Virus genome (UHGV): UHGV-1367859
Length of the DNA stretch: 64,000 nucleotides
DNA from: a virus
Reading direction: 5' to 3' (one strand)
In this document: positions 13,055 through 51,600 of the stretch, one piece after another
Layout: every line of letters starts with the position of its first letter
Position numbering within the stretch: the first letter of the stretch is position 1
Notes under the pieces: model-generated
Databases searched by the model: none
The model's input: the letters and a program-made list of their open reading frames with translations, nothing else
What the model was told of the DNA's origin: nothing
Translations under genes and position numbers: made by a program

Positions 13055-14089
13055 ATGAAAACTAGAAAAGAGACTGTACTAGGTAAGAGATTAGTGTAGG
13101 GAGACCCTAATCTAGTTACCAAAGATGAAATACTTGTAAAAGAAGTTGGGAATGAAGTTAAGTTATATGAGAGAAGTGATAATGGTAAACTTGTGTTATT
13201 AACTCCTGAAAGTAATAAACCTGCACCTAAAGATTATTTAGAGGTTTATTGGGCTAATTTCTCATGTCATATGAACCCAGGAAACATGGTACCTACTGAC
13301 ACTGCGTATACCATAGCTATAGACGCTCTACCATTAAAAAGAAATGGAAAAAATATATAGTATTTTTTATTTTCATTTCCTTTTTAGGGAGACTACTCCC
13401 TCGATGAGGGAGAAGTGACTGTTCTTACGAGATTAAGAACAGTCGACAACTCCCATTTGTTGGAGTTGCAAGAATTAAATAAAATACATAATATACAAGA
13501 CGTCCTTAATATAATAACTAAGGATGCGTTTGTCGAGGACCTACATACAACCAATTATATTCCATCTATAATACGCCAAAAATCTAGAGGAATTCTTGGT
13601 TTAATTAAATTAACTGCTAATACAGACGATTATCATATTCTAGATGCAAACTTAGAATTTCTTCCTGCGTTTACACAGAAAGAGGAACTTGAGGAGTAGA
13701 AATCTTTATTAGATGGGTCATTCAGAGAATGGAGGTGGAAAGCTAACTTTAAAATAAAAAATATAGATAATTAGGTTAGAACCTTCCTAGCTGAAGAAAT
13801 GTGTTATGTAGATGGAACTGTGATAGCAGGTTCTATAGGACCTACTTATCTTCAAAGCATTCGCCAGGCAATTATTAAGAATAAAGAAGTCTATGTTGGA
13901 GAGGTCCCAGCTAATGGAGGCCGTCATAAAGTAGATAATGGGGTAATACAACATGCTAAGTATCTATTTACTAGAAATACCTATGTTGTTAACTAGGCCT
14001 ATAAAAGCAGATAGACTCCTGTCTCTCAGGAGGATCTTCGCAGGTATTTTATAAAAAACATAAGCCAACACAAAATTTTAACAAAATAA
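13055..14089 (+). CDS. hypothetical protein with in-frame TAG codons (amber-recoded)
   Basis: A single frame stays open from ATG 13055 to TAA 14087-14089 with about 7 in-frame TAG and no TAA/TGA. It joins the track ORFs at 13415-13699 and 13799-13996, which are in the same frame. Confidence 0.5.
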
Positions 14090-14168: not shown

Positions 14169-14205
14169 TTTGCATATATCAAAAATTTTACCTAACTTTG
14201 CACTG
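14169..14205 (+). promoter_or_regulatory. Bacteroidetes-type sigma-A promoter upstream of the tRNA array
   Basis: TTTG at 14169-14172, a 20-nt spacer, and TAACTTTG at 14193-14200. The first tRNA starts at 14222. Confidence 0.5.
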
Positions 14206-14221
14206 TAATTCAAGAGAACAT

Positions 14222-14293
14222 TGCCACTTGGTGTAATGGTCAGCACATCAGATTTTGGTTCTGAGTGTAAGGGTTCAAGTCCTTTAGTGGCAA
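14222..14293 (+). tRNA. tRNA-Gln (anticodon UUG)
   Basis: Acceptor tgccact/agtggca, D-arm gtg-taatggtcag-cac, anticodon stem tcaga/tctga, loop ttttggt, T-arm aaggg-ttcaagt-ccttt. Confidence 0.75.
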
Positions 14294-16206: not shown

Positions 16207-16214
16207 GATGTATC

Positions 16215-17630: not shown

Positions 17631-17634
17631 ATAA

Positions 17635-17716
17635 GCCTCTGTGGTGAAATGGTAAACACAAGGGACTTAAAATCCCTCGGATTTAATCCTTGAGGGTTCA
17701 AATCCCTCCAGAGGTA
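17635..17716 (+). tRNA. tRNA-Leu (anticodon UAA), long variable arm
   Basis: Acceptor gcctctg/cagaggt, anticodon stem aggga/tccct, loop cttaaaa, T-arm gaggg-ttcaaat-ccctc. Confidence 0.75.
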
Positions 17717-17720
17717 CAAT

Positions 17721-17807
17721 GCCCCCTTGGTGGAATGGTAGACACGCTGGTCTTAGGAACCAGTATGAAGTAATAGTAGTGTGAGGGTTCGAGTCTCTCA
17801 GGGGGTA
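17721..17807 (+). tRNA. tRNA-Leu (anticodon UAG), long variable arm
   Basis: Acceptor gccccct/agggggt, anticodon stem ctggt/accag, loop cttagga, T-arm gaggg-ttcgagt-ctctc. Confidence 0.75.
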
Positions 17808-18252
17808 CTGAAATAAGAAATTAAGTATTTATATAACATTGAGTTTTACTGTAAATATTCAGGTGGCGTAATTCATGTTATCATAACCCCTTTACTATTT
17901 GTAAAAGTATGAAATACACAGTTTAGTATAATAAACAGAAATATCAAGTAGACATATCTGATAATAATATAGCTATTTATGATTCCTATAAAATCACTTC
18001 ATTATCTGATATGAGTAGTTTCTCATTCATTTAAAAGCTAGATTTTACCCATACAGTTCTATTAATAACAGAACTATGTTTAGCTTACTTAATGAATGGA
18101 GAACTCACAATTTATTATATTCTCTTGGTGTTCAAAAAGAAAGAACTGCTAGTGTAGACCTGGAGTCTAATCAATCTTGGTATATGACCGTAGCTTATGC
18201 TATATTATCTCCATTTTATTTACACTTTTATTAAAAATTTATTATCAATTTA

Positions 18253-18292
18253 TTTGGTAATTTAAATTATTTTTCATACCTTTGCATTGTTA
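18253..18292 (+). promoter_or_regulatory. Bacteroidetes-type sigma-A promoter dedicated to the suppressor tRNA
   Basis: TTG at 18254-18256, a 20-nt spacer, TACCTTTG at 18277-18284. The tRNA starts about 18 nt downstream. Confidence 0.5.
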
Positions 18293-18301
18293 ATAAAATA
18301 T

Positions 18302-18373
18302 TGCCTCATGGTGTAATGGTTAGCACAGAGGACTCTAAATCCTTTGGTCTCTGTTCGAGCCAGAGTGGGGCGA
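18302..18373 (+). tRNA. amber-suppressor tRNA (anticodon CUA), Gln-like body
   Basis: Acceptor tgcctca/tggggcg, 7 of 7 paired counting GU pairs. D-arm gtg-taatggttag-cac is nearly identical to that of tRNA-Gln(UUG) at 14222. Anticodon stem gagga/tcctt, loop ctctaaa with U33, CTA at 18335-18337, and A37. T-arm ctctg-ttcgagc-cagag. Confidence 0.75.
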
Positions 18374-18706
18374 CTAACTTTAATCACAATGAATAAGGAA
18401 GCTTTAAAATGGTTTATGTCCAATGTAATGCTCTAGCTAGAGCAGATTGACAAAGAGGTAAGTAACTCACTGTTGCAGGATGAACAGTTTGTTCTTGATT
18501 TTTATGATAAATTAAATGAAATAAGTGTTAGAAAATAAAAAAAATATAATTATGGAACAGGTAAAGATACCACACCCTATTGCTAGGATGGTGCTAACAC
18601 AGACTAAAATTATTCTTAATAGCCCCAACAACCAAGACAAAGAGTGGCTCAAAACTTTTAAAGAAGAACTTAATAAACTTATTAATCCTGAGTAATCTTT
18701 AGGAAA

Positions 18707-18779
18707 GCTTCCTTAGTTCAGCTGGTAGAACTACTGTTTTGTACTCAGTATGTCAGGGGTTCGAGTCCTCTAGGAAGCT
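18707..18779 (+). tRNA. tRNA-Thr (anticodon UGU)
   Basis: Acceptor gcttcct/aggaagc, D-stem gttc/gaac, anticodon stem actg(t)/(t)cagt, loop tttgtac, T-loop ttcgagt. Confidence 0.65.
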
Positions 18780-18788
18780 CAAGTAAGT

Positions 18789-18859
18789 GCAGGATTAGTT
18801 TAATGGTAAAATGCCACTCTTCCAAAGTGGATTTGGGGGTTCGATTCTCCTATCCTGCT
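18789..18859 (+). tRNA. tRNA-Gly (anticodon UCC)
   Basis: Acceptor gcaggat/atcctgc, anticodon stem ccact/agtgg, loop cttccaa, T-loop ttcgatt. Confidence 0.7.
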
Positions 18860-18865
18860 CTATAT

Positions 18866-18938
18866 TGTGGGGTGTTAGCAGTGGTAGCTAGTCAGGCTCA
18901 TAACCTGAAGGTCGGAGGTTCGAGTCCTCCTCCCGCAA
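18866..18938 (+). tRNA. tRNA-Met (anticodon CAU); the initiator / elongator / Ile2 distinction is unresolved
   Basis: Acceptor tgtgggg/tcccgca, D-stem tagc/gcta, anticodon stem tcagg/cctga, loop ctcataa, T-arm ggagg-ttcgagt-cctcc. Confidence 0.6.
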
Positions 18939-19111
18939 CTAAATCGAAATATTATGGGAGAAGATATGTATAAGAACGGAAAGATAATGAATGCTGTTGA
19001 AGCTCAGACTATCAGGGAGCTAGCAGATTTTGCCAATGATTATAAGATACCTAGGGAGGATGTGGTTTCAATCCTTCCTTCAAGAGAAGGATATGTAATG
19101 GTTTACTACTA

Positions 19112-22174: not shown

Positions 22175-22583
22175 TATGACACTTGAAGATGTAATTGAAT
22201 CACTTAATGTGCATATACTGAATAAAAGAAGAGACTTGCACATCTTGTCAAACAGCCAGGAACACCTTGTTCTACAGAGAGTTATAGAACCTCATCCTAC
22301 ATTTAAGTCATATAAGAGGTATGAGTTTATATTATGGGTGGTTGGTAATGATTCAAAGTATAGATTACTTACTTTGACTAAGCAGGTTAATATGAGTGAT
22401 ATTCCTTCATATGCACAAGAGAGCTTTATTAAAGCTACAGAATCTGAATTTGTTACTGGGCTATTCGGCCTTATTCTAGATGGCAAGTCTTTTAATAAAA
22501 AAGACAGAACAATACTTGAAGATATTATCTATGGAGAATACCTCGGCTATGGAGATGAATGTGTACTAGACCCCCTTGACTGA
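22140..22583 (+). CDS. hypothetical protein
   Basis: 147-aa ORF. Confidence 0.4.
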   Translation: MLRKKQCMKICNMTLEDVIESLNVHILNKRRDLHILSNSQEHLVLQRVIEPHPTFKSYKRYEFILWVVGNDSKYRLLTLTKQVNMSDIPSYAQESFIKATESEFVTGLFGLILDGKSFNKKDRTILEDIIYGEYLGYGDECVLDPLD

Positions 22584-25500
22584 AGAACTCCTTGGGTCTT
22601 TACCTGAGGAAGTCAAGGAGGAGTTATTGGACACTATAAATAGTGTAGAACTTATAAAAAGACTTATCTCTCCTAATAGGGTATATGCTAAGGATAGACC
22701 AAGAGATGAGCAAGGAAGGATTATAGTAGACCTTGCCAATCCTCATATACTTGAGGATATGGATTATTTCAGACAACCAGCCTTACACTTTATGAAGCAT
22801 GGCTGCTATACTTTTCTAAGACCAAATTCTAATCCTAACAGTGAATACAGAAAGCACTGGGATGAGGAGATGAGGAGATGTAGAGAGGGTTATGTAAGGG
22901 AGAGTGATGGAGAATGGGTCACAGGATTCCTTTATTGGTTTCTTAATTACTGTCCCATGATGGTAAATAAGGTAATTTCTGGCACAAGGAAAGCTGTCAG
23001 AGTTGAGTCTTTCCCCTTCTTCTTTGAAGGAATCTATTGGAGATTTCACTATCTTCATCAAGCAAGAGAGGCTGGTAAACATGCCATAGAACTTGCAAAG
23101 AGAGGTTGTGCAAAGTCATATAGTCTTGCAAGTATAATGTCTCACAACCTTATACTTGGTGAATCTACTGAAGTAAAGAGGAGGGTTATTACTGTACTTA
23201 CTGCTTATCAGAAAGAGTATCTTAGTGACAGTAAGGATGGCACACTCTCTAAGTTCAAACCTGGAATTAACTTCTCCTTCAAAAATACTCCATTCCCTAG
23301 GCTCATGTTAAAGAACTCTCCTAATGAGATGGCATGGCAGATGGGCTACAAGGATGAGTTTGGTATTGAAAGTGGGTCATTGAATCAGGTGCTTGCTGTT
23401 TCTGCAAAGGATGACTCAGAGAAGTTAAGAGGTAAGAGAGGTTGGATTCTATTCGAGGAGATGGGTTCTTTTAAGGGACTTCTATCCCTGTATGACATCA
23501 CAAGAAAATCTGTAGAAGATGGTGACTATACATTTGCTACAATGTACCTTGTAGGTTGTGTATGTGCTGGTACTAAGGTATGGACATTAGATGGCAGGAA
23601 TATCAATATAGAGGATTTAAAGAGAGAGGATGGTATCATAGGATTTACAGACTCCTTTGAGTCAGGTACTGAACCTAATATTCGCCTCACAAGAGGGATT
23701 ACCAAAGAACCTATAATGAGTTCTATAAGTATTGCTAAAAAACCATGTGTACTTATTAAACTGAGTAATGGAAATGAACTTAGATGCTCTACAGACCATC
23801 CAATTCTTACTCAGAAACAAAGAATGAATCATAATGGGTCTATAAGGTATTATGAAGAAGTATTCAAAAATGCTGGAGCTTTAAGTGTAGGAGATAGAAT
23901 TATAGAGAGTAGGGAAGTTCCAATATTTGGGACAGATACCATGTTTGACCCTAGATTAGTAGGTATGCTTATTGGAGATGGTTCTTATGGATTAAGGCAA
24001 TCCCCCAAGTATAGTTCTGAGGATAAAGAGCTTTTAGACTATGTAAAGCATAGATATGAATGGTCATTATCTGCTACTCATATTACCAAGAAAGGAAAAA
24101 TATACGAGGATATAAGAATTAAAGGTATTTGTAATAAATTAAGAGAATTAGGTATTTAGGGGCAAGTAAAATCCAATAAAAGGCTTCCTATCAACTATTA
24201 GACTCTTACAAGAGATGATACCTCACTATTGCTATCTGGATTATATGATACTGATGGTAGTATAAGCTTTAATAGAGACGGATATATATCTTTAACTCAA
24301 AGCAATAGGAAAATATTAGAGCAAGTTAAAGTACTGTGGAGAAAATTTGGAGTAGTTGGCACTATTGTGGAGACCAAGCCAAAACTATGTTCTGATAGGA
24401 AAGATAGAAATTCTTGGTTTACTCTATCTATATCAGGGAGACATAATTGTACAAGAGTGTGTGGTGTGCTTCAACTTCTTGTTCCACACAAGAGAGATTG
24501 CCTTAAAAGGATAATGGACTATTATAATAGCAATCCGAGTATGAAGGCTCAAAAATATCCAGAGGATATAATAGTTCACAAAGTTACTTCTGTAGAAGAG
24601 ATAGGTGAACAAGAAGTATATAATTTAACTGCTGGATTAAGTCATACCTACTTGGCTAACAATATAGTAACTCATAATACTGCTGCTGAGGATGAGTCAG
24701 ACTTCAGTTCGGCAAAAACTCTTCTTTACAATCCAGATGGTTACAATATTCTGGCTATTGAGAATGTCTATGACAGACCTAAGCAAGGAAAGCCTACCTT
24801 TGGATTTTTCTTTCCTTCTTATGTAAATAGGGCAGGATGTTACAACAAGGATGGTGTTTCTGATGTAACAAAGGCTCTCATAGAAATTCTGTTGGCAAGA
24901 CACAAAGCTAAATATTCTGCTGACCCTAAGTCAGTATTAAGAGTTATTGCCGAGGACCCAATTACACCAGCTGAAGCTATCATTAAAGTGAAGGCTGCCT
25001 ACTTTCCTACAGTAGCTCTTACTGAGAGATTGGCTCAACTTGACTCAGACCCTCATGCTTTTGATGATGTTTACATAGGTAATCTTGCCCTAGCAAGTGG
25101 TAATAAGGTAGAGTTTAGAATAGGTAATGATGTGCCTATCAGAAAGTATGGAGTTGACAATTCAACAGTAGGTGCTATTGAGATATTTGAAATGCCTGAG
25201 AAACAAGCAAATGGGGATGATTTCAATATGAGATATATTATAGGCCATGACCCTGTGGATAATGATTAGGCAGAGTCTTCTTCTCTTTCTTCAACCTTTG
25301 TACTTGACCTGTTTACTGACAGAATTGTAGCAGAATACACTGGTAGGCAGGCATTTGCAGATGATAACTTTGAGATAGTAAGAATGCTGTGTCTATTCTA
25401 TAATGCCAAGTGCATGTACGAGGCTCATCCATATAGTCAGTCTGTACCAACACCAAATGGTATGAAACTGTGGAAGGATGTTAAAATAGGGGATAAACTG

Positions 25501-26904
25501 TTTTCCCCCACAAAGGGTGAAGTAACAGTAACTAATATACCAGTTGATGAGTACATGCCTATATATAAGGTTAAATTAGCTGATGGCAGAATTGTAGAAG
25601 CTAGTAATAATCATATATGGCTAGTATATAAAGGAACTTCTAGAACTCCTATCGAAATTACTACAGAAGAAATGCTTAGGTCAGGGTTAATAACTAAACA
25701 CAAGCAACATAAGTTTTTTATACCTGAGCATAATGGGGTTGATTATAGTTATAAAGAATTGCTCATAGACCCCTATACTATGGGTTTATTGCTTTCTGAA
25801 GGGAGTCTAACAGGAGGTCATTGTGGCAAAAATTATGTACAGATGTCCTCTTCTAGGGAAGATATGGATTTCTACAAAAAGAATATCCCATATAGAGTTA
25901 ACTATATTGGTAACAAGGGGTACTCTTGGCATATTTATATTCCAGGATGTAGAGATATAATGACTAAATATGGGTTATATGGAGCTACAAGTCACACTAA
26001 GTTCATTCCAAATGAATATCTTTTCAGTAACTATGTTCAGAGAATGGAACTACTGAGGGGAATAATGGATGGAGATGGGTGTGCCAGAACTAGGGGGGCT
26101 AGTGTATTTATTACATGCTCACAGTCACTTGCAAATAATGTATTATCCTTAGCTAGAAGTTTAGGGATGAAAGCATGGCTTCAGACTCCTAAAGAAGGGG
26201 TATATAGAGTGTTGATATCTTCCATATATAAGATATTCAAACTCCCTAGGAAAGTAGTGGAGCAACATACTTATAAGCCTTATAGTAAAGGAAGTAGAGC
26301 CTCAGCTATATTAGGAAAGACTGCGATAGATAGTATTAAATATTCTCACATGGAAATGGGCAAATGTGTCACTGTAGACTCAGATGATGGACTATATATG
26401 ATAGGAGATTATGTAGTAACTCATAATTGTAATAAGAAAGGACTATATGCCTATTTCAATAAAATGAATTGCACACACCTACTGGCAGATACTCCTGAAT
26501 ATTTAAGAGACAAACAGATGATTAAGTATTCTGCCTTTGGCTCAAATGCAAAAGGTATCAATGCGAATGCTACTATCAACAATTATGCTAATAACCTGAT
26601 AAGGGATTGGCTACTTCAGCCAGTTCCAACTATAATAAAGGAGGATGGAGAAGAGAAAGAGGTCAATATTCCAAGGCTCTATTCTCTAAGAAATAGAGCA
26701 TTACTTGAAGAGTTAATTTCCTACACTCCTGAACTTAATGTGGATAGAATCAGGGCATTAGGTATGGTTATGCTGTATAGACAAGAGAAGATTATACTGT
26801 ATAGAGATAATCTTAATGCTAAGGCACAGGAGGAAGTCAGTAGTTCATACTTAGGCAATGATTCTTTCTTCCAAAGGAATTACTCCCAAGGGTATATACA
26901 GTAA
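22576..26904 (+). CDS. terL: terminase large subunit interrupted by two LAGLIDADG inteins; contains 3 in-frame TAG codons
   Basis: The track ORFs at 22576-24159, 24229-25269 and 25384-26904 are all in frame 1, separated only by TAG codons at 24157, 24211 and 25267. Intein hallmarks are C-VCAGTKVWTLDG ... LIGDGSYG ... LYDTDGSI ... VTHN|T, and C... LLSEGSL ... IMDGDGC ... VVTHN|C. The exteins carry a terminase ATPase/nuclease-like sequence. Confidence 0.65.
23557..24678 (+). mobile_element. intein 1 (Hint splicing domain plus LAGLIDADG homing endonuclease)
   Basis: Begins at a Cys (block A CVCAGTKVWTLDG) and ends at ...NIVTHN with +1 Thr. It has two LAGLIDADG-type motifs and contains two in-frame TAG codons. 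Confidence 0.55.
25411..26427 (+). mobile_element. intein 2 (Hint plus LAGLIDADG), N-terminal boundary approximate
   Basis: LLSEGSLTGG and GIMDGDGCA are LAGLIDADG motifs. The C-terminus is DYVVTHN with +1 Cys. The N-terminal Cys could be 25390 or 25411. Confidence 0.45.
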
Positions 26905-26949
26905 ATTTAGCAAAAAAGAGTACTAAGACTTAATATTTTACTTATGGGC

Positions 26950-26990
26950 TTGCACAAGTTAAAGGTTTTGCTTACCTTTGCAGCACATTT
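26950..26990 (+). promoter_or_regulatory. Bacteroidetes-type sigma-A promoter
   Basis: TTG at 26950-26952, a 20-nt spacer, TACCTTTG at 26973-26980. The ATG is at 27005. Confidence 0.5.
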
Positions 26991-27004
26991 AAGTTGAAGA
27001 ATAT

Positions 27005-29400
27005 ATGAGTGATTTCACAAATTTACCCCCACAACAACTGCCATTCTCCAGAAAGAATAAGGCTTGGAGAAAGAAGCACCTTGACTGGGCTGGCTCTAAG
27101 ACATTTTTCAACTATTCTTTGGTAAGGAAGAGTGTGATACATAAGAAAATCAACTATGATTTACTTAATGGTAGGCTTCACATGAGTGACCTTGCAATGG
27201 TATTGAACCCTGATAACATAAAGGCAGGTTACATACCTGAAAGGATTCAACATTACCCTATAATGAATAGTAAGCTGAATGTTCTTAGGGGAGAAGAGTC
27301 CGATAGAGTATTTGACTATAGGGTAGTTGTAACTAATCCAAATGCTATTTCTGAAATAGAGAATAATAAAAAGCAGGAATTACTTGCAAGAGTTCAGCAA
27401 CTATTAGCTGAGGAGACTCAATCAGAGGAAGAGTTCAATGCAGAGCTTGAAAAACTCAATGACTTCTTTACTTTTGAGTGGCAAGACATGAGAGAGGTAA
27501 GAGCCAATGCTCTCCTTAATCACTACTCTAAAGAGCTTAATTTCCCCTTCCTCTTTAACCAAGGTTTTACTGATGCAATGGCAGTAGGTGAAGAGATTTA
27601 CCAATGTGATATTGTAGGTGGTGAACCTATCATAGAAAGACTAAATCCTCTTAAAGTCAGAGTATTCAAGTCAGGATATAGTAACAGGATTGAGGATGCT
27701 GATATGATTGTACTTGAGGACTATTGGAGTCCTGGTAAAATCATAGACACTTATTATGATGTCCTTACCAAAAAGGACATGGAGTACATAGAAAAGATGC
27801 CCAATAACACAGACCAAGTAACTGACTCTATGGATAACATAGATGATAGAATGGGGTTTGTAAATGGGCACATGATAGGGGAAGAATTTACTTCTCAGGA
27901 AGGTTTCTTCTGGGACCCCATAGGAATGACAGATGGTGTAGGCACTTCACTTCTTCCTTTTGATGTTGCAGGAAATATAAGGGTACTTAGAGTTTACTGG
28001 AAATCAAGAAGGAGAATTAAGAAAGTTAAGTCTTACGACCCTCAGACAGGTGAAGAGGTATTTAATCTCTACCCAGAAACTTACGTTATAGATAAGGACA
28101 AAGGTGAGGAGGAAAAGATATTATATATCAATGAAGCCTGGGAAGGGACAAAGATAGGTAATGACATCTATGTCAACATGAGACCTAGAGTAGTTCAGTA
28201 TAACAGACTATCCAATCCTTCAAGGTGCCATTTTGGTATTATAGGTTCTATCTATAACCTTAATGACAACAAGCCTTTCTCTCTTGTTGATATGATGAAG
28301 CCCTATAACTATCTCTATGATACAATTCATGATAGGCTCAACAAGCTAATCTCAAGAAACTGGGGTATGCTTATTAACCTTGACCTTGCTAAGGTTCCTA
28401 AAGGATGGGAGATAGAGAAATGGATGTACTTTGCTAAGACTAATGGTATTGTAGTTACAGATAGTTTTAAGGAAGGCAATATTGGTGCTGCTACAGGTAA
28501 GCTTGCAGGTGCTCTTAACAATGCAAGTTCTGGAGTTGTCAATGCTGAACTTGGTAATACTATACAGCAATATACCAATCTTCTTGAGTTTATCAAGATG
28601 GAAATGTCTGATGTGGCTGGTATTTCTAGGCAAAGAGAAGGTCAGATAAGTAATAGAGAGACTGTTGGTGGTGTCGAAAGAGCTACCTTACAATCTTCTC
28701 ATATAACTGAATGGCTCTTTATCATACATGATGATGTAAAGAAGAGGGTTCTTGAGGCATTCCTTGAAACAGCTAAGATAGCTTTAAGAGGCAGAAGTAA
28801 GAAGTTCCAGTATATTCTTTCTGATAATTCAAGTAAGGTTATGGACATAGATGGAGATGAGTTCTCTGAAAATGATTATGGCCTTGTTGTAGATAATAGT
28901 AATGGACTACAGGAGTTACAGCAGAAGATGGATATGCTTGCTCAGGCAGCTTTGCAGAATCAGACTCTTACCTTCTCCACTATCATGAAGCTCTATAATA
29001 GCTCTTCTCTTGCTGAAAAACAGAGAATGGTTGAGAAGAATGAACAGGAGCTTATGCAAAGACAGCAGGAAGCTCAACAGCAGCAATTACAGGCTCAGCA
29101 ACAATAGGCTCAGATGGAAGCTCAGATAAGGGAAGCTGAAATGCAGCTCAAAGATACAATGAATCAGAGAGATAATGAGACTAAGATACTTATAGCAGGT
29201 ATAGGTTCTCAAAGTCAGGAAGATGGCATCCAAGAGCAGGAGTTTTCTGAAGAGGCAAGAGCTAATCTGTTTGAAAAGATGAGAGAGTTTGATGAGAGGC
29301 TCAAACTTGACAGAGAAAGGTTAGCCTTTGATAAGAAGAAAGCTCAAACTGATGCTGAACTCAAAAGAAAATAGATTAATAAGAAACCAAATACTAGTAA
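27005..29400 (+). CDS. portal protein candidate (reads through 2 TAG codons)
   Basis: A large protein of more than 700 aa directly after the terminase. The frame stays open through TAG at 29105 and 29372 to TAA at 29398-29400, and has a Gln-rich C-terminus. Confidence 0.45.
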
Positions 29401-29403
29401 GTA

Positions 29404-30318
29404 ATGAGAAAATTTGATAATATAATACATTCAAATTCAGCCCCTCCTACCAATAGTCTGTGGCTCCATAATGACAAACTTCAATACCATAACAATGGCA
29501 AATGGACTGATATAATATTAACGATAGGAGAAGACAATCCAGAGGCTAAGTTAAAGTTTGAAGAGAGAGAACTGAGTCCCCTACATGACTATGTACCTGT
29601 TATACTTGTAAATAGAGACCGCGACGCGCCACTCAAAATTTTAGCAACGTTTTATAATGGTCAAGTAACAGCAATTGCCGATGGCAAGGCTATTATTTTC
29701 AATGTAGACTACAATGAGAATTGGCTTGTAAAGGAGACTAGAATTATTGACCTTACTCTACTTCCTACCTATGTTGACCTTGAACTAGGTGACTCTCCTG
29801 AGATTGAAGCATATAATAGAGAACAGCTGTCTAGGGTGGCAGGAACATAGTTCCTTGTTCATGCTGACTATGGCATTGGAGTAGGTTCTTGGTATTATAA
29901 TGCAGGTGGAGAAGCTACCATCACTACAGCATCAGGTAACAGAGTGCATTACATATTAACTGCGGATGGAGCTTGTAGAAGGGATGCTGACCACTTTGAC
30001 CATTCTGAATTATTTTATGATTTAGGGGTTATTAACTTAGCTGAAATAACTCCTACAACTATAATAAATAAAGAGATAACTGACTCTGTAGGGGTGGCTC
30101 AGTTCAAAAAAGCTTCGAATGTAGTTCTGACTGTTCACACTTCAAATGGAGATTTTGAAGTTAATTGCCCTCAGGTTTCAATGGGTCCTATTCAAAAGAC
30201 ATTTAATAGTCCTAGCATTGTAGCTGGTAATGAAGATAGTTGGAATTATCTTAAGATAATAGCTAACATCCAAACTGACCCAAGCAAAGTATTAATCACT
30301 ATTGAGGCAATGCAATGA
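29404..30318 (+). CDS. virion structural protein candidate (1 in-frame TAG)
   Basis: Track ORFs 29404-29850 and 29944-30318 are in the same frame and are joined only by TAG at 29848-29850. The gene ends with TGA. Confidence 0.5.
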
Positions 30319-31109: not shown

Positions 31110-31152
31110 TGTAGATATGACTAAATAGGAAAAGGATGAACTATTTAATGAG

Positions 31153-32214
31153 TTGCTAGCTTTTCTCTCTAGGTCTTCAGTAAGTGTTGAAGACCTTCCA
31201 GAGGCTGGCAGCTTAGATGATGTGAATAGTTTTCCTGCATATAAGAAAGACTCTAAGGAGCTGGTAACCATTCCTTCTAGTGCTCTTAAAGAAGCTTCAA
31301 ATAAAGCTGATGCAGCTGCTCAGTCTGCACTTAGTGCATCTTAGCAATGTATGATTGCTGGAGCTAATGCTAACAATGCTGTATAGAGAGTCAACTAGAC
31401 CTTGAATTCTTTGCCTGGTTAGGTAGAAACACTGGTTAATAATTCTACTAGTGCACAGTCTAATGTAAATTCTAGAATTATTAATTTCTATACAAGTAGA
31501 CCTTCTTCTAATGCACTTGAATTAGAAATAACTGTATCAGAAAATGATTATAGAACTTTTGAATAGCTTCTGGAAGAAGAGTATGACTATGCTGATAGTT
31601 ATGACCATAGACCAATAATATTTACAGTTCTACAGAATAATGGTGTACCTAAGTATAGGAAGATTGTTTATGACAATAACCTTAGGGATAGTTAGAACTA
31701 TATTGACTATGACTTAAGTGGACTTCATGAGAGAATAGATACTCTTGACAGTAGGGTTCCTTATGATGCAGGAATAATAGAACTAGATTTAGTAAGTCAA
31801 GGAGAAACAACTTCCAAACAGGAAACTTTATTGCCTTCTAATAAAAATTATTTCAAATTTATAGAGATACTAGAATAGAGGGATAATAGGACTGTGCTAT
31901 GTACTATTGTCCCATCTAAAACTTAGGTAGGAAGTCCTTATACTGGTTTCAGATTCTTATGTTCTCTTCATAAGGATGGCTATGACTGGTCTATTCTTAC
32001 AGGTAAATATATTGATGTTGGTGAGGATGCAATAAACATTTATTATCTTTGTATTAAATGTTATAAGCCAACTTTTGGAGTAGGTGATGGGATGAGTATA
32101 TTAAAGTATCCTATTAAACAAGTAACTATTAGGCTTACTGAAGGTGAAGGAGATGGTCATTGTACAGAATTGTAGGAGATTAAAGCAACTGAAATAGTTG
32201 AAAAAATGATATAA
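31153..32214 (+). CDS. amber-recoded structural (tail-fibre-like) protein
   Basis: 353 codons with about 10 in-frame TAG and no TAA/TGA until 32212-32214. Confidence 0.5.
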
Positions 32215-32237
32215 TAAATGATAAATGAATTTTAAGT

Positions 32238-33295
32238 ATGGAAATTGAATATTTAGGAAAAAGCTCTTTTAATAAAATATAGAACTAGCTTCAGCTTCTT
32301 AATTCCTATAGTGAATGGAAAGACATCACTGAAGAGTGTGTTCATATTGGATATAAAGTTAATCCACAGATAGTTCCTTAGGATTTGCAAGAAGGTAATG
32401 ACATTTTTGTGGAAGATGAAAATAGTATTGCAATAAATGCTGTAAGCCTCTTATCAGAGGATGCTACTTGGTGTGGTGACTTGAACGTTGCGTATAACTT
32501 TAAAATATTAATTTAGCCTAAAGCTTCTTCTAGCTCTGACATGGGTTTAATTGCTCAAACTATCTTAAGTAAGGATTTTGTTGGAAAAACCCTCGTAGTA
32601 AAAGCTGCTAATATTGGAGAGGAAGTGGAAGAGGATTACTCCATATAGGACATAACAGTTAGTGAAGTTTTAGAAAATGGACTTACATATAAATAGAGGG
32701 AGAGCAGGTTTTTCAATGAGAAGGAGCAATTTGTGGCAAGCCTAATGGTAAGTTAGGCAGTAGTATCTTTCCATTATAACCAGGAATATAAATACAAGGT
32801 AGTTTACAAAGACTCTGTCTTTACAACGCCAGCCGACTTTGTAAATAAAATGGTATATGGAGACGCTCCTTTTAGTATGATTGGTTAGAAGCTCTCCTCC
32901 GCAACTTTCAGTGATGATACCGATTAGATAAGGACCCTCTGGCCATAGGGTTGGGCCTCTTTTATAGTTGTTCCAGTATATGAAGGCGAGCCGAATGGTA
33001 ATGTTAAGTCAGGTCTAAGAGTTGAATATTATAGTGGTGATAACACTAAACATGAAACTATAGTGGACAATACATCATACCAGTCTATATATGGTTAGAC
33101 TGATTATCTTATTATACCAAAAGTAAAAGGAGCTACCTAGTCAGACTACCTAGTTATAGGTAGGATTGACTCAGCTTTTAAACCAGTGGGAGTTGAAATC
33201 TATGAGATGACTGCTCCTTATAGATAGATTGTCGATAGGGTAAGTGATGTAGACTATAGAATCAGAGAATTAGAAAAGTAGCTGAATGCTACATA
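32238..33295 (+). CDS. amber-recoded structural (tail-fibre-like) protein
   Basis: About 352 codons with about 15 in-frame TAG, terminating at TAA. Confidence 0.45.
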
Positions 33296-33317
33296 AATAT
33301 AATATTTTTTTTTCTAA

Positions 33318-47991: not shown

Positions 47992-48686
47992 CAAAATATA
48001 TAAGCATAAGACAAGTTCTTGATAACCTGATGGATAATCCCTTGCTACAAGATTTATCTTTAGAAAGGGCAGTCAATTATGCTGTCAGGTTCATACAGAA
48101 GGTAGGTATGCCCTCAATATTCCTTGAGAAAACAGAGAAGGTTGAGATAGAGAATTATAGAGGTAAGCTACCTTGCGACTTCTATGAAATGATACAGGTA
48201 AGAGCAGTTGGTCATAACTGTAATGGAGTACTTCATGAAGTATTCAGATACTCTACTGATTCATTTCATATGAGTCCTGATAAGACAAGAGATAATGACC
48301 TTACCTATAAACTACAGGGAAGTTGTATTTTTACTTCTATGAAGGAAGGAACTATAGAAGTAGCTTATAGAGCTTTCTCGACAGATGAAGAAGGATTCCC
48401 TCTCATACCAGAGAATGGTTCTTTTGAGGAAGCACTTGAGCTATTTATAAAGGTAAAACATTTTACAGTTCAGTTTGAGCTTGGTAGGATAACTCAACAG
48501 GTTCTGCAACACGCAGAACAACAATATGCTTGGGCAGTGGGTCAAGCTCAGTCTGACCTTGTTAGGCCCTCTATTGACCAACTCCAATCTTTCACTAATT
48601 CTTGGAATACTTTAATCTCCAGGACTAATGAGCATAGCAAAGGGTTTAAAACTCTTGGTTCTAAGGAGTATATCAAACTTCATTAA
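47988..48686 (+). CDS. hypothetical structural protein
   Basis: 232-aa ORF. Confidence 0.45.
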   Translation: MTKYISIRQVLDNLMDNPLLQDLSLERAVNYAVRFIQKVGMPSIFLEKTEKVEIENYRGKLPCDFYEMIQVRAVGHNCNGVLHEVFRYSTDSFHMSPDKTRDNDLTYKLQGSCIFTSMKEGTIEVAYRAFSTDEEGFPLIPENGSFEEALELFIKVKHFTVQFELGRITQQVLQHAEQQYAWAVGQAQSDLVRPSIDQLQSFTNSWNTLISRTNEHSKGFKTLGSKEYIKLH

Positions 48687-48696
48687 TTATATTAAC

Positions 48697-51600
48697 ATGA
48701 TGTATTCAGATAATCATATATTTAAAGGCCTAAGGAGAGATGTTCACCCATCAAGACAAGATGAGTCTTTTTTATGGGATGCTTTAAATGTGAGACTTAC
48801 TAATAGGGATAGTGATACTGGGTTTTCTATCACTAATGAGAAGGGAAATACGGACACTGGTGTTGTTTTTGATGGGTAGTACGTAGGACATTGTGTGCTT
48901 AATAGATACTTAGTAGTATTTACTGTAAGTTAGAATGACACTCAGGAAGTATCTAGAATATATAGACTCCATGAAGATAAAGGGGAGTGGATTAAAGTTA
49001 CTCTATTTGAAGGAGTGCTAGGTCTTGATGCTAATCACCCTCTAGAAATATTAGGGGATAGTGAGTCAGTTCTTGTGAATAAGTTGTATTGGACAGATGG
49101 AATTAACCAGCCTAGAGTTATTAATATAACTGCCCCAGAGTTGAAACTTCCTGAAGATATAGCTAGTAAAGTTATAGTAGACGGAGTTAATTTCTCAAAT
49201 CCATAGAAAAGTGAGGGAGTTTCCTAGGAAGTTATAGAAAATCTAGAAAAGTGGTATGAAAAAGGAAATTGGATATACAGAGCTGAGTCTCCATTTGATT
49301 TTGTATAGAACCTATAGTTAAAAGAAAGAGTACTGGTAGGTAGAAGTTCCAGTCATGGAGAATTTTCTCCTGGAGTAATTCAATATGCTCTTACATACTT
49401 TAATAAGTATGGGCAAGAAAGTAACATATTCTATGTATCTCCCATATAGTATATAAGGAATTATGATAGAGCTGGTAATCCAGAAGAGAAGGTTATAACT
49501 TCTTTCACAATTAAAGTAGAAAATGTTGATAACTTTGATTATATAAGGGTTTATTCTATACATAGAACTTCACTAGACGCATAGCCTACAGTTAAGATTG
49601 TAGCTGACTTAGACTTAAAAGATTGCTAGGAGGAAAGTGCTGAAGGAGAATACTGGTATGATGTGTTTGGTTCTGAGGATTAGCTGGTAAAAACAATTGA
49701 ATATACAGATACTGGTCTTACTGGTTCAATAGAAGACCCTGCTAAACTATTATATACTGGGGGACAAACAATATTAGCTGGAACTATCACTAGCAAAGAA
49801 GGAGTGATGTTTTATGGAAACATTACTGTTCAGAAAAATACTAAAGAACTAACTACATTACTTCAATAGGAAGAGGCTGAAAATGGGGACTCTTTAGGGT
49901 TAACAGATTGTTTTTTAGCCGAAGATACTTATGATAATTAGGGTATAAATAAATACTATCCTTATCTACCATAGTTTAAGCCTGGTCATTTTAAGGCAGG
50001 AGAAACATATAGATTAGGAGTTCAATTTTAGTTTAAGACTGGAGAATGGTCAGAACCTATTCCATTAAACAAAGTCATAAGGAATAGTGATGGTGATGGT
50101 GATGGTTTTCTTGATGTAGAGTTAAATAATTCATATTCTTGGGGCACTATTGACGGGGTGGATACTAAGGAACTTTAGTTATTCCCTAATGCAACTGCCT
50201 CATTATTAAAAGCTGGAGTAAGAAGGGCTAGAACTTGTGTTGTTTTCCCTAAGCCAGCGGAGAGAAATATTATATGTTAGGGAGTTTTAAATCCTACTGT
50301 CTACAGTGTGAGAGGAAGGCACATGAATAACCCATATGCAATGTCATCTTGGTTCTTTAGGCCATCTCCTGTATATGTAGATGGAAAGCCAAAAGAAACC
50401 TCTACCTCGATAGATTAGGGGTCGACTATTTAGTATAAACATAATTATACACTTTTCAGTGGAGGTAATAGAAGTGCTGAAATATAGTCATCTCTGCCAG
50501 GAGATTCCAATAAGTCAATATAGGAAATTATTTCTCCCTCTGATGGTATAAAGTCTCATTATTCAACTTTTGCTGTTGATAGTAACTTAGTTACTTTACA
50601 TTCCCCAGAAATTGAGTATGGGTCCTATATAAATACTACTCAATTAGAAGGAGCAAGGCTAAATATTGTTGGAGCCGCTAGCCTACATGGATTGTATGGA
50701 GATATAGATTTAGCAGTGACCTCTAAAGCTAGTTCTCAGGCTGGAGGATTTATACATCATCCTGTAGGATTTCCAGTGAACTGTACTACTCCTAATACTA
50801 CTGTTAATGGAGGATTTGTATCATCATGTTGTTTTGAAGATAAAATACTAAGAGGGGATTTTTTAGATGAGGATAGGACAGGTATTGTTAAATATTTAGT
50901 TTATCCTTGGCATAGAACAGGCTCACTAAATAATGATATTGTCAGGTCTCCTGAGATTATAGAGAAATCCGGAAGTGATAGAACAGCTATACTAAAATGG
51001 AAGATTATTTCCAATTTAAAGTATTTTGAAAGTAAGTCAACTTTTTTTAACTCTAATAACCACAATATTAAAATTACAACTCCTAAGTTATTCTCTTCTA
51101 AAGAGGTTACAGGCTTAACTGTTCGTGTTCCACATTTAGACTAGGATGTACTATACTTTGGAAATGTAGATGATATTGTATCAGCCACATCAGATTATCC
51201 TATTTATGCTGGTACTGATGATAGTATTTCACAAGTATCCCCTACTAATGTATCTACTTCTGGGGAGTCAGTAAGAATGAAGTATAAATCATCTCCTCAC
51301 TTAGTATTCTCTTTATATGATGAGGATAACCCTAAGGTTATTCCAGTACTACCATACACTTCTGTTACTGGTGAGACTATAACTTCATAGTATACCCCCT
51401 CTGGATGGGAGAATAATACTTCTACCAGTACTTCATATCCTATCCTTTCATTTATAGGCTCAAAAACCTTTTATGGGACTTATAACAAAGAGGGGAACTT
51501 AGTACTAGATGTTGACGATACAAGTGTGACTGCTCTAGGAACCTATCAGATTGTAATGGCTTACATTGGATCCATAGCTAAGCGTGTATTGGTTAAAAGG

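What the first reader, a model, noticed from the sequence alone, without database searches (positions are those of the whole stretch)
18253..18373. Phage-encoded amber-suppressor tRNA (anticodon CUA) with a Gln-like body and its own promoter
A canonical 72-nt cloverleaf has an anticodon loop ctCTAaa (U33, A37) that would decode UAG. Its D-arm, gtg-taatggttag-cac, is almost identical to the phage tRNA-Gln(UUG) at 14222-14293 (gtg-taatggtcag-cac). This suggests it arose by duplication of tRNA-Gln and would be charged with Gln. It sits apart from the main array, after an ORF-poor AT-rich spacer. A perfect TTG-N20-TACCTTTG promoter lies about 18 nt upstream, consistent with separately timed (late) expression.
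Basis: partly seen in the sequence, partly recalled or inferred. Interest (0 to 1): 0.9.

Follow-up and report, generated by a model that had tools for sequence, protein, structure and literature searches.

The report
Amber-suppressor tRNA of recoded crAss-like phage
This is a real phage tRNA that reads the stop codon UAG as glutamine so that a gut crAss-like phage can translate its own stop-interrupted late genes, which is a known trick in these phages; its constant pairing with a tiny unknown protein gene may be new.

Summary
Window 18302-18373 (+) is a canonical 72-nt tRNA with anticodon CUA (ARAGORN; Rfam 55 bits). A Bacteroidota-type promoter (TTTG-N20-TACCTTTG) ends 17 nt upstream.

The window comes from a crAss001/cr85_1-like phage (Crassvirales, Steigviridae-like). 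About 108 in-frame TAG codons sit almost only in plus-strand, mostly late, genes. These TAGs align with glutamine in homologues, so this is TAG-to-Gln recoding ("code 15"). That phenomenon has been described by Yutin 2021 and Borges 2021, and validated by proteomics by Peters 2022.

The tRNA body is glutamine-type, but it is not a recent copy of the resident tRNA-Gln(UUG): identity is only 60%. Its nearest relatives are CUA tRNAs of other phages (79-89%).

The promoter is not specific to this tRNA. In a standard-code relative (L002) the orthologous promoter drives tRNA-Thr-Gly-Met. The same motif also heads the tRNA array and precedes the portal and capsid operons. Separate late timing is therefore not supported.

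Verdict: a new member of a known kind, of low to moderate interest.

One possibly new lead emerged. The 49-aa ORF just downstream (18389-18538) belongs to a family found behind a CUA tRNA in 13 of 14 lineages examined, and it often contains in-frame TAG itself.

The parts
18302..18373 (+). Amber-suppressor tRNA with anticodon CUA (CTA at 18335-18337). The body is glutamine-type: U1.G72, G2-C71, C3-G70, A73. No CCA is encoded.
   Evidence: ARAGORN; Rfam 55 bits; covariation across relatives; D-arm signature is Gln-specific in bacterial genomes.
18253..18286 (+). Bacteroidota-type promoter-like element: -33 TTTG at 18253-18256 and -7 TACCTTTG at 18277-18284, within the extended motif TTTTCATACCTTTGCA at 18271-18286. 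It ends 17 nt before the tRNA.
   Evidence: 5 exact copies of the motif against 0.03 expected. The orthologous element precedes tRNA-Thr in L002. It is conserved before the suppressor in 8 relatives. The transcription start site has not been mapped.
18389..18538 (+). Small ORF of 49 aa with one in-frame TAG at 18434-18436 and the C-terminal motif NEQFVLDFYDKLNEISVRK. It belongs to a small-protein family that sits downstream of CUA tRNAs.
   Evidence: AlphaFold2 predicts a helical hairpin at pLDDT 95. No Pfam, PHROG or Foldseek PDB match.
18553..18696 (+). Second small ORF of 47 aa, between the suppressor cassette and tRNA-Thr.
   Evidence: Called as a gene in strain contigs. The C-terminal half is conserved in L197. 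It is absent from L211, L218 and others.
18707..18939 (+). tRNA-Thr(UGU), tRNA-Gly(UCC) and tRNA-Met(CAU). In the standard-code relative L002 these are the genes directly served by the promoter that now precedes the suppressor.
14169..14293 (+). Promoter at the head of the array (TTTG-N-TAACTTTG, 14169-14200) followed by the resident tRNA-Gln(UUG) at 14222-14293.
17855..18234 (+). Frameshifted remnant of a small ORF. It is intact in L002 (8221-8550) and is also present upstream of the suppressor in L211.
48628..53466 (+). Virion structural ('stabilization') protein gene with 40 in-frame TAG codons, which is 65% of its Gln codons. It is the main client of the suppressor in this window.
31117..33296 (+). 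Two orphan late genes, with 10 and 14 in-frame TAG codons (59% and 67% of their Gln codons).
13055..14089 (+). Orphan gene with 7 in-frame TAG codons (44% of its Gln codons). It has its own promoter-like motif at 13023-13038 and lies just upstream of the tRNA array.
22411..29404 (+). Intein-containing large terminase (5 TAG) and portal (2 TAG) genes. These are conserved genes that are interrupted under the standard code.

Best explanation
The gene at 18302-18373 is a functional, phage-encoded amber-suppressor tRNA of the glutamine type. It belongs to a crAss001-like (Steigviridae-like) gut phage that has reassigned TAG to glutamine in part of its genome.

Proposed mechanism, step by step:
1. 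Host RNA polymerase transcribes the tRNA from a Bacteroidota sigma-A-type promoter at 18253-18284, probably together with the two small ORFs and tRNA-Thr-Gly-Met downstream. (Inferred.)
2. Host enzymes process the transcript and add CCA. (Inferred.)
3. The host glutamine-charging system aminoacylates it, because it carries U35 and the acceptor features of Bacteroidales tRNA-Gln. (Inferred.)
4. It then competes with release factor 1 at UAG, so that about 108 in-frame TAG codons in plus-strand, mostly virion, lysis-region and orphan late genes are read as Gln.

What is shown: the cloverleaf and the CUA anticodon; conservation and compensatory changes across strains; the in-frame TAGs and their alignment with Gln; the absence of TAG as a terminator; and a promoter motif that is conserved and shared with late genes.

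What is not shown: transcription, charging and decoding.

The tRNA was most likely acquired as a cassette (tRNA plus a small ORF). The cassette was inserted between an existing promoter and tRNA-Thr in an ancestor that used the standard code.
For: The tRNA is real.

Strain conservation: 10 of 10 strain contigs carry it at the same site. The diverged L197 copy keeps CUA and has two compensatory stem changes.

TAG read-through restores genes. ORF coverage rises from 73% to 91%, and the longest ORFs grow from 1125 to 2092 aa. In-frame TAG counts are 40, 14, 10, 7 and so on in plus-strand genes, against 3 in 2783 codons of the minus-strand block. All 60 complete modelled genes end in TAA or TGA.

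TAG means Gln:
- In 119 homologues of the 40-TAG protein, residues facing TAG are Q 35.5% of the time against a 2.5% background. Five columns are Q in 119 of 119.
- Against the standard-code genome cr85_1, Q is the commonest partner: 16 of 49 aligned positions. Ordinary Q codons score 103 of 218.
- In the linked small-ORF family, TAG replaces the invariant Q of the NEQ motif in two lineages.

Gln-type body. An anticodon-blind D-arm pattern finds 46 tRNAs in 185,579 bacterial genomes. By my tally of the listed rows, 40 are Gln (TTG or CTG), 4 are suppressors and 2 are His. Prevotella and Prevotellaceae tRNA-Gln share U1 with a weak 1-72 pair, G2-C71, C3-G70 and A73. In the 16-tRNA family, U1 is invariant and the 1-72 pair is always weak or mismatched.

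The genome is crAss-like: capsid protein 78-81% identical to cr85_1 and crAss001; portal matches phrog_6547; Pfam crAss_AuxCP and crAss_CARGO2 hits.

Cassette insertion. The standard-code relatives L002 and cr85_1 have the same array order but no suppressor. L002 has the orthologous promoter in front of tRNA-Thr, 0 TAG in TerL, and an amidase gene that ends in TAG TAG.

Literature: TAG-to-Gln with CUA suppressor tRNAs in crAss-like phages (PMC7886860; bioRxiv 10.1101/2021.08.26.457843); validated by metaproteomics (PMC9523058); crAss001 middle and late genes probably transcribed by host RNAP (PMC8375218).
Against: - There are no expression, aminoacylation or proteomic data for this phage.
- Some homologues used may themselves have been translated with TAG=Q. 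The control against cr85_1 reduces this worry.
- Only about a third of TAG positions face Q in distant homologues, much as ordinary Q codons do, so the inserted amino acid is inferred and not proven.
- The acceptor stem has U1.G72, not the U1-A72 of host-type tRNA-Gln. Position 37 is A, not the G seen in Bacteroidales tRNA-Gln.
- How the tRNA outcompetes RF1 is unknown. No release factor or aminoacyl-tRNA synthetase turned up in the ORFs I scanned, but the scan was not exhaustive and covers only 64 of about 101 kb.
Confidence: 0.88

Rival explanations
1. The suppressor arose in place, by duplication of the phage's own tRNA-Gln(UUG) followed by anticodon mutation.
For: tRNA-Gln(UUG) is the closest tRNA to the suppressor in the window. 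The two share the D-arm (one mismatch), the 5' acceptor sequence UGCC and A73. A 63-nt stretch spanning the promoter and the 5' half of the tRNA is 76% identical between the two units. Yutin 2021 documents one such Gln-to-Sup point-mutation event in an alpha-group phage (PMC7886860).
Against: Overall identity is only 60%, and five pairs of other in-window tRNAs score higher. CUA tRNAs in unrelated contigs are 79-89% identical. The downstream small ORF is shared with those contigs. The standard-code relatives L002 and cr85_1 have the Gln(UUG) gene but nothing at the suppressor site. The D-arm is common to bacterial tRNA-Gln in general.
Confidence: 0.1
2. The tRNA mainly serves as a weapon or a timer and not as a plain decoder. 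It would force read-through of host TAG stops to damage host and defence proteins (Yutin 2021). Or it would hold back lysis and late proteins until enough suppressor has accumulated (Borges 2021).
For: TAG use is very uneven. It makes up 59-67% of Gln codons in a few late orphan genes and the stabilization protein, yet is absent from the capsid, scaffold and cargo genes and nearly absent from the minus-strand replication block. A spanin-like lipoprotein (33376-33801) and a membrane protein (34630-35043) each carry a TAG. Both ideas are raised in PMC7886860 and in 10.1101/2021.08.26.457843.
Against: The amidase endolysin at 17020-17619 has no TAG. The suppressor's promoter is of the same class as those of the capsid and portal genes, so the sequence gives no sign of a delay. 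Nothing here measures read-through in the host. These roles would add to decoding, not replace it.
Confidence: 0.3
3. It is a pyrrolysine tRNA (ARAGORN's label), or a non-functional tRNA-like relic.
For: ARAGORN prints 'tRNA-Pyl' for any CTA anticodon.
Against: The tRNA has G18G19, a TTCGA T-loop, a 5-bp anticodon stem and a 4-nt variable loop. These are ordinary elongator features, not those of tRNA-Pyl. TAG columns align with Gln. The gene is conserved with compensatory changes and has about 108 client codons, which argues against a relic.
Confidence: 0.01

Closest known systems
CUA suppressor tRNAs of TAG-to-Gln recoded ('code 15') crAss-like phages (Yutin et al. 2021, PMC7886860; Borges et al. 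2021, bioRxiv 10.1101/2021.08.26.457843; proteomic validation by Peters et al. 2022, PMC9523058)
   Same: A phage-encoded tRNA with anticodon CUA. In-frame TAGs are concentrated in late, structural and lysis-region genes, while the replication block uses the standard code. TAG aligns with Gln. The host is Bacteroidota and uses the standard code. No phage release factor or aminoacyl-tRNA synthetase was seen.
   Different: This genome belongs to the beta / Steigviridae-like group and is close to crAss001 and cr85_1. Yutin 2021 found only 1 suppressor among 57 genomes of that group (OFRY01000050; 96.5 kb; 8 tRNAs), and that is a different phage. Here the suppressor sits inside a 21-tRNA array, behind a promoter that serves Thr-Gly-Met in relatives. 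It is also paired with a conserved small ORF.
E. coli supE (glnV44), an amber suppressor derived from tRNA-Gln(CUG) (textbook knowledge)
   Same: A glutamine-type tRNA body carrying CUA. It is expected to be charged through recognition of U35 and a weak 1-72 pair, and it inserts Gln at UAG.
   Different: It is not a one-base mutant of a resident gene. It is only 60-74% identical to the Gln tRNAs examined. It has A37 where Bacteroidales tRNA-Gln has G37. It is a selected, conserved gene that serves about 100 sense TAG codons, not a laboratory nonsense suppressor.
[quoted passage not shown] 2021)
   Same: The suppressor tRNA is grouped with other genes in a small conserved unit that lies on the late-gene strand.
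   Different: The partner here is a helical protein of 49-59 aa with no detectable similarity to synthetases or release factors. In about half of the lineages that partner itself needs TAG read-through.
tRNA arrays of crAss001 and cr85_1 (Steigviridae, standard code)
   Same: The order is the same (Gln-Arg-Glu-Asp-...-Leu ... Thr-Gly-Met), and so is the position upstream of the terminase and late genes.
   Different: Those arrays have no CUA tRNA, and their genes contain no in-frame TAG.

Membership tests
Phage amber-suppressor tRNA of a TAG-to-Gln recoded crAss-like phage | Canonical tRNA cloverleaf with anticodon CUA | tested here: met
   ARAGORN; Rfam at 55 bits; hand-read fold; covariation on 16 related tRNAs.
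Phage amber-suppressor tRNA of a TAG-to-Gln recoded crAss-like phage | The genome has in-frame TAG codons in conserved genes, and read-through restores full-length ORFs | tested here: met
   TerL has 5, the portal 2 and the stabilization protein 40. ORF coverage rises from 73% to 91%.
Phage amber-suppressor tRNA of a TAG-to-Gln recoded crAss-like phage | TAG positions correspond to glutamine in homologues | tested here: met
   Q is 35.5% against a 2.5% background, and five columns are Q in 119 of 119. Q faces 16 of 49 aligned positions in the standard-code genome cr85_1. TAG occupies an invariant Q in the small-ORF family.
Phage amber-suppressor tRNA of a TAG-to-Gln recoded crAss-like phage | Recoding is biased to late, structural and lysis-region genes, with the standard code in the replication block | tested here: met
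   94 TAG in the late block, 11 in the block around the array, and 3 (of doubtful reality) in the minus-strand block.
Phage amber-suppressor tRNA of a TAG-to-Gln recoded crAss-like phage | Crassvirales signature genes are present | tested here: met
   Capsid protein 78-81% identical to cr85_1 and crAss001; portal matches phrog_6547; Pfam crAss_AuxCP and crAss_CARGO2 hits.
Phage amber-suppressor tRNA of a TAG-to-Gln recoded crAss-like phage | The tRNA is expressed, charged with Gln and decodes UAG during infection | not testable with these tools
   This needs tRNA-seq, aminoacylation assays or proteomics. Related phages have been validated by metaproteomics (PMC9523058).
tRNA-Gln type body (substrate of the host Gln-charging system) | Shares the structural signature of bacterial and Bacteroidales tRNA-Gln: the D-arm, U1 with a weak 1-72 pair, G2-C71, C3-G70 and A73 | tested here: met
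   by my tally, 40 of the 46 tRNAs matching the D-arm pattern are Gln. Prevotella and Prevotellaceae tRNA-Gln carry U1-A72, G2-C71, C3-G70 and A73. The suppressor has U1.G72, not U1-A72. U1 is invariant in the family.
tRNA-Gln type body (substrate of the host Gln-charging system) | Gln anticodon elements U35 and G36 | tested here: inconclusive
   U35 is present. Position 36 is A by definition in a suppressor. From textbook knowledge of E. coli, CUA tRNAs are accepted by GlnRS; this has not been tested for Bacteroidales enzymes.
   Identity to it is 60%, against 79-89% to CUA tRNAs in other contigs.
tRNA-Pyl (ARAGORN label) | Atypical tRNA-Pyl architecture (short D loop without G18G19, 3-nt variable loop, 6-bp anticodon stem) together with pyl genes | tested here: not met
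   G18G19, a TTCGA T-loop, a 5-bp anticodon stem and a 4-nt variable loop are present. TAG aligns with Gln. I did not search for pyl genes.
Bacteroidota sigma-A-type promoter (-33 TTTG / -7 TAnnTTTG) | Both motifs are present with about 19-21 nt between them, upstream of a gene | tested here: met
   TTTG-N20-TACCTTTG lies 17 nt before the tRNA. There are 5 exact copies of the extended motif against 0.03 expected, all intergenic and upstream of plus-strand genes or tRNAs.
Bacteroidota sigma-A-type promoter (-33 TTTG / -7 TAnnTTTG) | Conserved at orthologous sites while the flanking sequence diverges | tested here: met
   8 beta-type relatives, plus L002, where the element precedes tRNA-Thr.
Bacteroidota sigma-A-type promoter (-33 TTTG / -7 TAnnTTTG) | A mapped transcription start and dependence on host RNAP | not testable with these tools
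   This needs 5'-RACE or dRNA-seq, with and without rifampicin.

The most novel reading that the evidence does not exclude
The suppressor is half of a portable two-gene 'code-switch' cassette. A glutamine-type CUA tRNA is followed by a helical-hairpin protein of 49-59 aa (C-terminal motif NEQ[FW][VF]LD[FY][YL]D[KR][LI]NE[IL]SV). That protein would help suppression, for example by antagonising RF1 or by favouring charging or delivery of the suppressor tRNA. Alternatively it reports that suppression has begun, since in about half of the lineages its own ORF contains 1-2 in-frame TAG codons.

The genetic linkage is shown. 13 of 14 distinct family members examined lie downstream of a CUA tRNA on the same strand, within 1 kb. 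They occur in beta-type genomes of about 100 kb and in unrelated contigs of 111-192 kb.

Any functional link is pure inference. I found no description of this pairing in the papers I consulted.
Probability: 0.25. Interest if true: 0.75.

Novelty: new member of a known kind. Interest (0 to 1): 0.3.

Why it matters
The tRNA itself adds one more well-documented case of stop-codon reassignment in an abundant human-gut phage lineage. Its amidase is found, identical in sequence, in 135 blocks of the public assembly collection.

It also gives a clean before-and-after pair for studying how a genetic-code change starts. L002 and cr85_1 use the standard code. The window phage differs by a suppressor cassette inserted behind an existing promoter, and TAG has since spread unevenly through its late genes.

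In practice, this genome must be annotated with TAG=Gln, or its terminase, portal and tail genes appear fragmented.

The linked small protein is the one element that could bear on an open question raised by Borges et al.: how recoded phages beat release factor 1 without encoding release factors or synthetases.

Tried and rejected
- Megablast of 14000-19000 against GenBank phages found only short tRNA matches, so there is no close DNA relative there.
- The single-sequence fold of the tRNA is not significant on its own (z = -1.6). I relied on covariance models and covariation instead.
- One IMG/VR pattern scan returned nothing because I miscounted the spacer by one base. The corrected pattern worked.
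- The exact 25-mer of the suppressor occurs only in the window's own IMG/VR contig, IMGVR_UViG_3300045988_037736.
- I checked whether the phage is Yutin's OFRY01000050, the only beta-group suppressor carrier in that study. It is not: that genome is 96.5 kb with 8 tRNAs.
- PHROG scans of the heavily recoded genes gave no family for any of them. Only two neighbouring genes with no in-frame TAG (33981-34340 and 35520-36419) matched PHROGs, both of unknown function.
- For the small ORF family, Pfam and PHROGs gave only sub-threshold noise, and Foldseek against the PDB gave no match.
- A literature search for phage factors acting on RF1 found nothing relevant.
- I rejected the tRNA-Pyl label and the pseudogene idea (see the rival explanations).
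- I considered whether the 'spacer' upstream of the tRNA hides an RNA element. It is a frameshifted homologue of a small ORF that is intact in L002.
- I did not use the metagenome-contig scan or the representative-protein search, because the Logan/ENA look-ups already supplied the contexts I needed.
Full report

Yes. ARAGORN reports 23 tRNA genes in the window, one of them at 18302-18374 (+) with anticodon cta at position 34. Its 'Pyl' label only reflects the CTA anticodon. Rfam's tRNA model matches 18302-18373 over its full length at 55 bits, against a gathering score of 29.

The sequence folds by hand into a standard cloverleaf:
- acceptor stem UGCCUCA/UGGGGCG, with U1.G72
- D stem GUGU/GCAC, with G18G19 in the loop
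- anticodon stem GAGGA/UCCUU
- anticodon loop C-U-CUA-A-A, with CTA at 18335-18337
- a 4-nt variable loop
- T arm CUCUG-UUCGAGC-CAGAG
- discriminator A73, and no encoded CCA

The thermodynamic fold of the single sequence is unremarkable (z = -1.6), so I looked for comparative support. On 16 U1-type CUA tRNAs from phage and MAG contigs, 95.8% of cells pair against 75.6% in shuffles, 16 of 21 pairs change on both sides, and slid registers fall to 40-47%.

Within the same phage species, 10 of 10 independent assemblies carry the tRNA at the same place. One diverged copy (L197, about 75% identity across the region) keeps CUA while changing G10-C25 to U-A and A28-U42 to U-A. This gene is under selection as a tRNA.

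**2. What genome is this, and does it need a suppressor?**

The major capsid protein (39360-40874) is 78-81% identical to those of uncultured phage cr85_1 and Bacteroides phage crAss001. The portal matches phrog_6547. Pfam finds crAss_AuxCP and crAss_CARGO2. The window is therefore a Crassvirales genome of the beta / Steigviridae type. It is the same genome as IMGVR_UViG_3300045988_037736, 101,471 bp.

Reading TAG as sense raises the fraction covered by ORFs of at least 100 aa from 73% to 91%. It also lengthens the largest ORFs from 1125 to 2092 aa. Reading TGA as sense does almost nothing.

In-frame TAGs are unevenly spread:

| Gene | In-frame TAG | Share of Gln codons |
|---|---|---|
| Virion 'stabilization' protein, 48628-53466 | 40 | 65% |
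| Orphan gene, 32238-33296 | 14 | 67% |
| Orphan gene, 31117-32214 | 10 | 59% |
| Orphan gene, 13055-14089 | 7 | 44% |
| Intein-bearing terminase | 5 | 12% |
| Portal | 2 | 4% |
| Capsid, scaffold-like and cargo genes | 0 | 0% |

The minus-strand replication block has only 3 doubtful TAGs in 2783 codons. All 60 complete modelled genes end in TAA or TGA.

**3. What does TAG mean?**

I masked TAG as X in the 40-TAG protein and aligned 119 homologues of 36-52% identity. Residues facing TAG are Q in 35.5% of cases, against 2.5% at other positions. Five columns are Q in all 119 sequences.

Some database homologues may themselves have been translated with TAG=Q. So I repeated the test against the DNA of cr85_1, which GenBank annotates with the standard code. 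Q is again by far the commonest partner, at 16 of 49 aligned positions. Ordinary CAA/CAG codons face Q at 103 of 218 positions.

There is independent support in the small-ORF family described in section 7. TAG replaces the family's invariant Q in two lineages.

This is the TAG-to-Gln reassignment reported for crAss-like phages (PMC7886860; bioRxiv 10.1101/2021.08.26.457843). It has been confirmed by metaproteomics in two other crAss-like phages (PMC9523058).

**4. Is the body 'Gln-like', and where did the tRNA come from?**

The inference of a local duplication is weak, though. The suppressor and the resident tRNA-Gln(UUG) are only 60% identical. That is the top value against the suppressor, but five pairs of other in-window tRNAs score higher.

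A better test of type was an anticodon-blind search for the D-arm plus the closing base pairs of the anticodon stem, run in one genome of each of 185,579 bacterial species. By my tally of the rows listed, it returned 46 tRNAs: 40 Gln (TTG or CTG), 3 CTA, 1 TTA and 2 His. The D-arm therefore marks tRNA-Gln in general.

Prevotella and Prevotellaceae tRNA-Gln in that set have U1-A72, G2-C71, C3-G70 and A73. The suppressor has U1.G72, G2-C71, C3-G70 and A73. U1 with a weak or mismatched 1-72 pair is invariant across the 16-member CUA family. From textbook knowledge of E. coli GlnRS, U35 and an openable 1-72 pair are identity elements, and CUA tRNAs are readily glutaminylated. Whether Bacteroidales enzymes behave the same way cannot be tested here.

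The nearest relatives of the suppressor are other CUA tRNAs:
- 89% identity in L197
- 79-82% in contigs binned as Acholeplasmataceae, Clostridium and 'Bacteroides' MAGs, which look like phage contigs
- 73-78% in several IMG/VR phages

Together with the shared downstream ORF (section 7), this favours acquisition of a ready-made suppressor over in-place duplication. Yutin et al. reached the same kind of conclusion, acquisition from outside the phage lineage, for the one beta-group suppressor they found. That genome (OFRY01000050; 96.5 kb; 8 tRNAs) is a different phage.

**5. The promoter and the timing claim**

TTTG (18253-18256), a 20-nt spacer, and TACCTTTG (18277-18284) match the Bacteroidota -33/-7 consensus. 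The full pattern TTTG-N17-22-TAnnTTTG occurs only twice on the plus strand of the window. The other copy (14169-14200) lies 21 nt before the first tRNA of the array, tRNA-Gln(UUG).

The extended motif TTTNNNTANCTTTGCA occurs 5 times exactly against 0.03 expected. The sites are 10960, 14187, 18271, 26967 (before the portal) and 38141 (before the scaffold/capsid genes). One-mismatch copies lie before the minus-strand tRNA-Arg, before gene 13055, and at 45329 and 53537. So this is the phage's general promoter class on the late-gene strand, not a special one.

The decisive comparison is with L002 (IMGVR_UViG_2124908002_000012; amidase 79% identical). L002 has the same tRNA array but no CUA tRNA, no TAG in TerL, and an amidase gene that ends in TAG TAG. 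Its orthologous promoter sits directly in front of tRNA-Thr-Gly-Met. cr85_1 likewise has the array without a suppressor.

In the window, about 405 bp has been inserted between that promoter and tRNA-Thr: the suppressor plus two small ORFs. No further plus-strand TAnnTTTG or terminator-like site lies in between.

The promoter is conserved upstream of the suppressor in eight beta-type relatives, while flanking bases diverge.

In crAss001, middle and late genes are thought to be transcribed by host RNAP (PMC8375218). Expression in the middle or late period is therefore plausible for the whole array. Nothing singles out the suppressor.

**6. Mechanism**

Shown:
- a conserved tRNA with anticodon CUA
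- about 108 client TAG codons that behave as Gln codons
- no use of TAG as a terminator
- a conserved host-type promoter

Inferred:
- transcription by host RNAP from about 18290
- processing by RNase P and 3' maturation, with CCA addition by host enzymes
- charging by the host glutamine system
- competition with RF1 at UAG

Highly expressed genes such as the capsid gene avoid TAG. That fits suppression that is incomplete or costly.

Whether recoding also times lysis (Borges) or harms the host (Yutin) is open. The endolysin amidase inside the array has no TAG. A spanin-like lipoprotein and a membrane protein in the lysis region have one each.

**7. A lead beyond the original finding**

The ORF that starts 15 nt after the tRNA (18389-18538) encodes 49 aa and has one in-frame TAG at 18434-18436. 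It is conserved at the protein level in L197, at 61% aa identity, with its TAG at a different codon.

A profile search of IMG/VR found two further homologues, each immediately downstream of a CUA tRNA (L210, L211). A search of the 5.8-billion-protein collection found 244 clusters of 37-86 aa.

I fetched contexts for ten of these. Adding the window, L197, L210 and L211 gives 14 distinct members. In 13 of the 14, a CUA tRNA lies upstream on the same strand. The spacing takes three forms:
- adjacent, in the beta-type genomes of about 100 kb and in a 176-kb phage
- about 500 nt away, behind two small ORFs, in contigs of 111-192 kb
- about 940 nt away, behind an inserted GIY-YIG gene

The exception (L225/L226) has no detectable tRNA.

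With a family profile, further homologues appear 150-300 nt downstream of U1-type CUA tRNAs that I had retrieved independently by a tRNA pattern: L094, L128, L133, L137 and L141. L111 gave only a weak hit. None appears beside G1-type CUA tRNAs.

Eight of about 17 distinct family sequences contain 1-2 in-frame TAGs at varying positions.

AlphaFold2 predicts a confident two-helix hairpin (pLDDT 95). There is no Foldseek PDB match, no Pfam family and no PHROG family.

The linkage is solid. The function is unknown. An accessory role in suppression is an attractive guess and no more than that. I found no mention of this pairing in the papers I consulted.

**8. Verdict**

It belongs to a well-described phenomenon, so it is a new member of a known kind, in a phage group where suppressors were rare in the 2021 survey (1 of 57).

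The origin-by-duplication claim and the separate-timing claim are not supported.

Interest for the finding as stated is low to moderate. The suppressor-linked small protein is the part worth a follow-up.

Noticed in passing
window 18389-18538; also L197 11275-11421, L210 367-537, L211 ~1226-1384, L183 6617-6796, L212-L224, L227-L232: A family of helical-hairpin proteins of 49-59 aa (244 clusters) lies downstream of a CUA suppressor tRNA, on the same strand, in 13 of 14 distinct members examined. About half of the members contain in-frame TAG themselves. Twice the TAG sits at the family's invariant Gln. There is no match in Pfam, PHROGs or the PDB.
   Followed up: yes
window 17855-18234: The 'AT-rich spacer' before the suppressor is a frameshifted copy of a small ORF. 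The ORF is intact in L002 (8221-8550, 109 aa) and is also present in L211. In the window it is split between two frames, with a TAA near 18032. It could be a pseudogene, a sequencing error or a programmed frameshift; this is undecided.
   Followed up: partly
window 18553-18696: A second small ORF (47 aa) lies between the suppressor cassette and tRNA-Thr. It is conserved in strains, its C-terminal half is conserved in L197, and it is absent from several relatives that have the cassette.
   Followed up: partly
window 22411-26904: The large terminase gene is about 1497 codons, against 760 in L002. It appears to carry two inteins with LAGLIDADG-type endonuclease domains (Pfam Intein_splicing and LAGLIDADG_3 on the homologous genes of strain contigs). 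Gene calls differ between strains.
   Followed up: no
window 15365-15961 and 20980-21645: Homing-endonuclease-like genes lie in and near the tRNA array. An HNH-like ORF sits between tRNA-Asn and tRNA-Trp; this is judged from sequence motifs only. A GIY-YIG/NUMOD3 ORF has Pfam hits on the identical gene in L197-L206. In L227/L228 a GIY-YIG gene separates a CUA tRNA from its small-ORF partner.
   Followed up: partly
window 13055-14089, 31117-32214, 32238-33296: Three orphan genes use TAG for 44-67% of their Gln codons, while the capsid, scaffold and cargo genes use none. They have no PHROG match. One of them (13055-14089) lies outside the structural block and has its own promoter-like motif.
   Followed up: partly
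window 8672-9082 (-), with motif at 8764-8749 (-): Two tRNA-Arg genes (UCU and CCU) sit on the minus strand, apart from the main array. The promoter motif, with one mismatch, lies only about 5 nt upstream of tRNA-Arg(UCU). A third tRNA-Arg(UCU) is in the plus-strand array.
   Followed up: no
L002 252-650 (-): ARAGORN predicts a tmRNA-like gene (tag peptide GNTYRMAA*) next to the two tRNA-Arg genes of the standard-code relative L002. No such call is made in the window.
   Followed up: no
L177 and L180 (MAG contigs of 186 kb and 153 kb): These contigs carry both a CUA and a UUA suppressor tRNA within about 3 kb, which suggests phages that can read through two stop codons. They are binned as Bacteroides and Clostridium MAGs but look like phage contigs.
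   Followed up: no
L229 30-176 and L231 644-718: ARAGORN calls tRNA-Ile(AAU) and tRNA-His(AUG) in the arrays of related phages. These anticodons are unusual for bacteria.
   Followed up: no
window 33376-35043: A probable lysis region. It contains a lipoprotein with a lipobox and a C-terminal transmembrane segment (spanin-like, 1 TAG), a coiled-coil protein, and a multi-pass membrane protein (1 TAG near the C-terminus). The amidase endolysin, in contrast, lies inside the tRNA array (17020-17619) and has no TAG.
   Followed up: no
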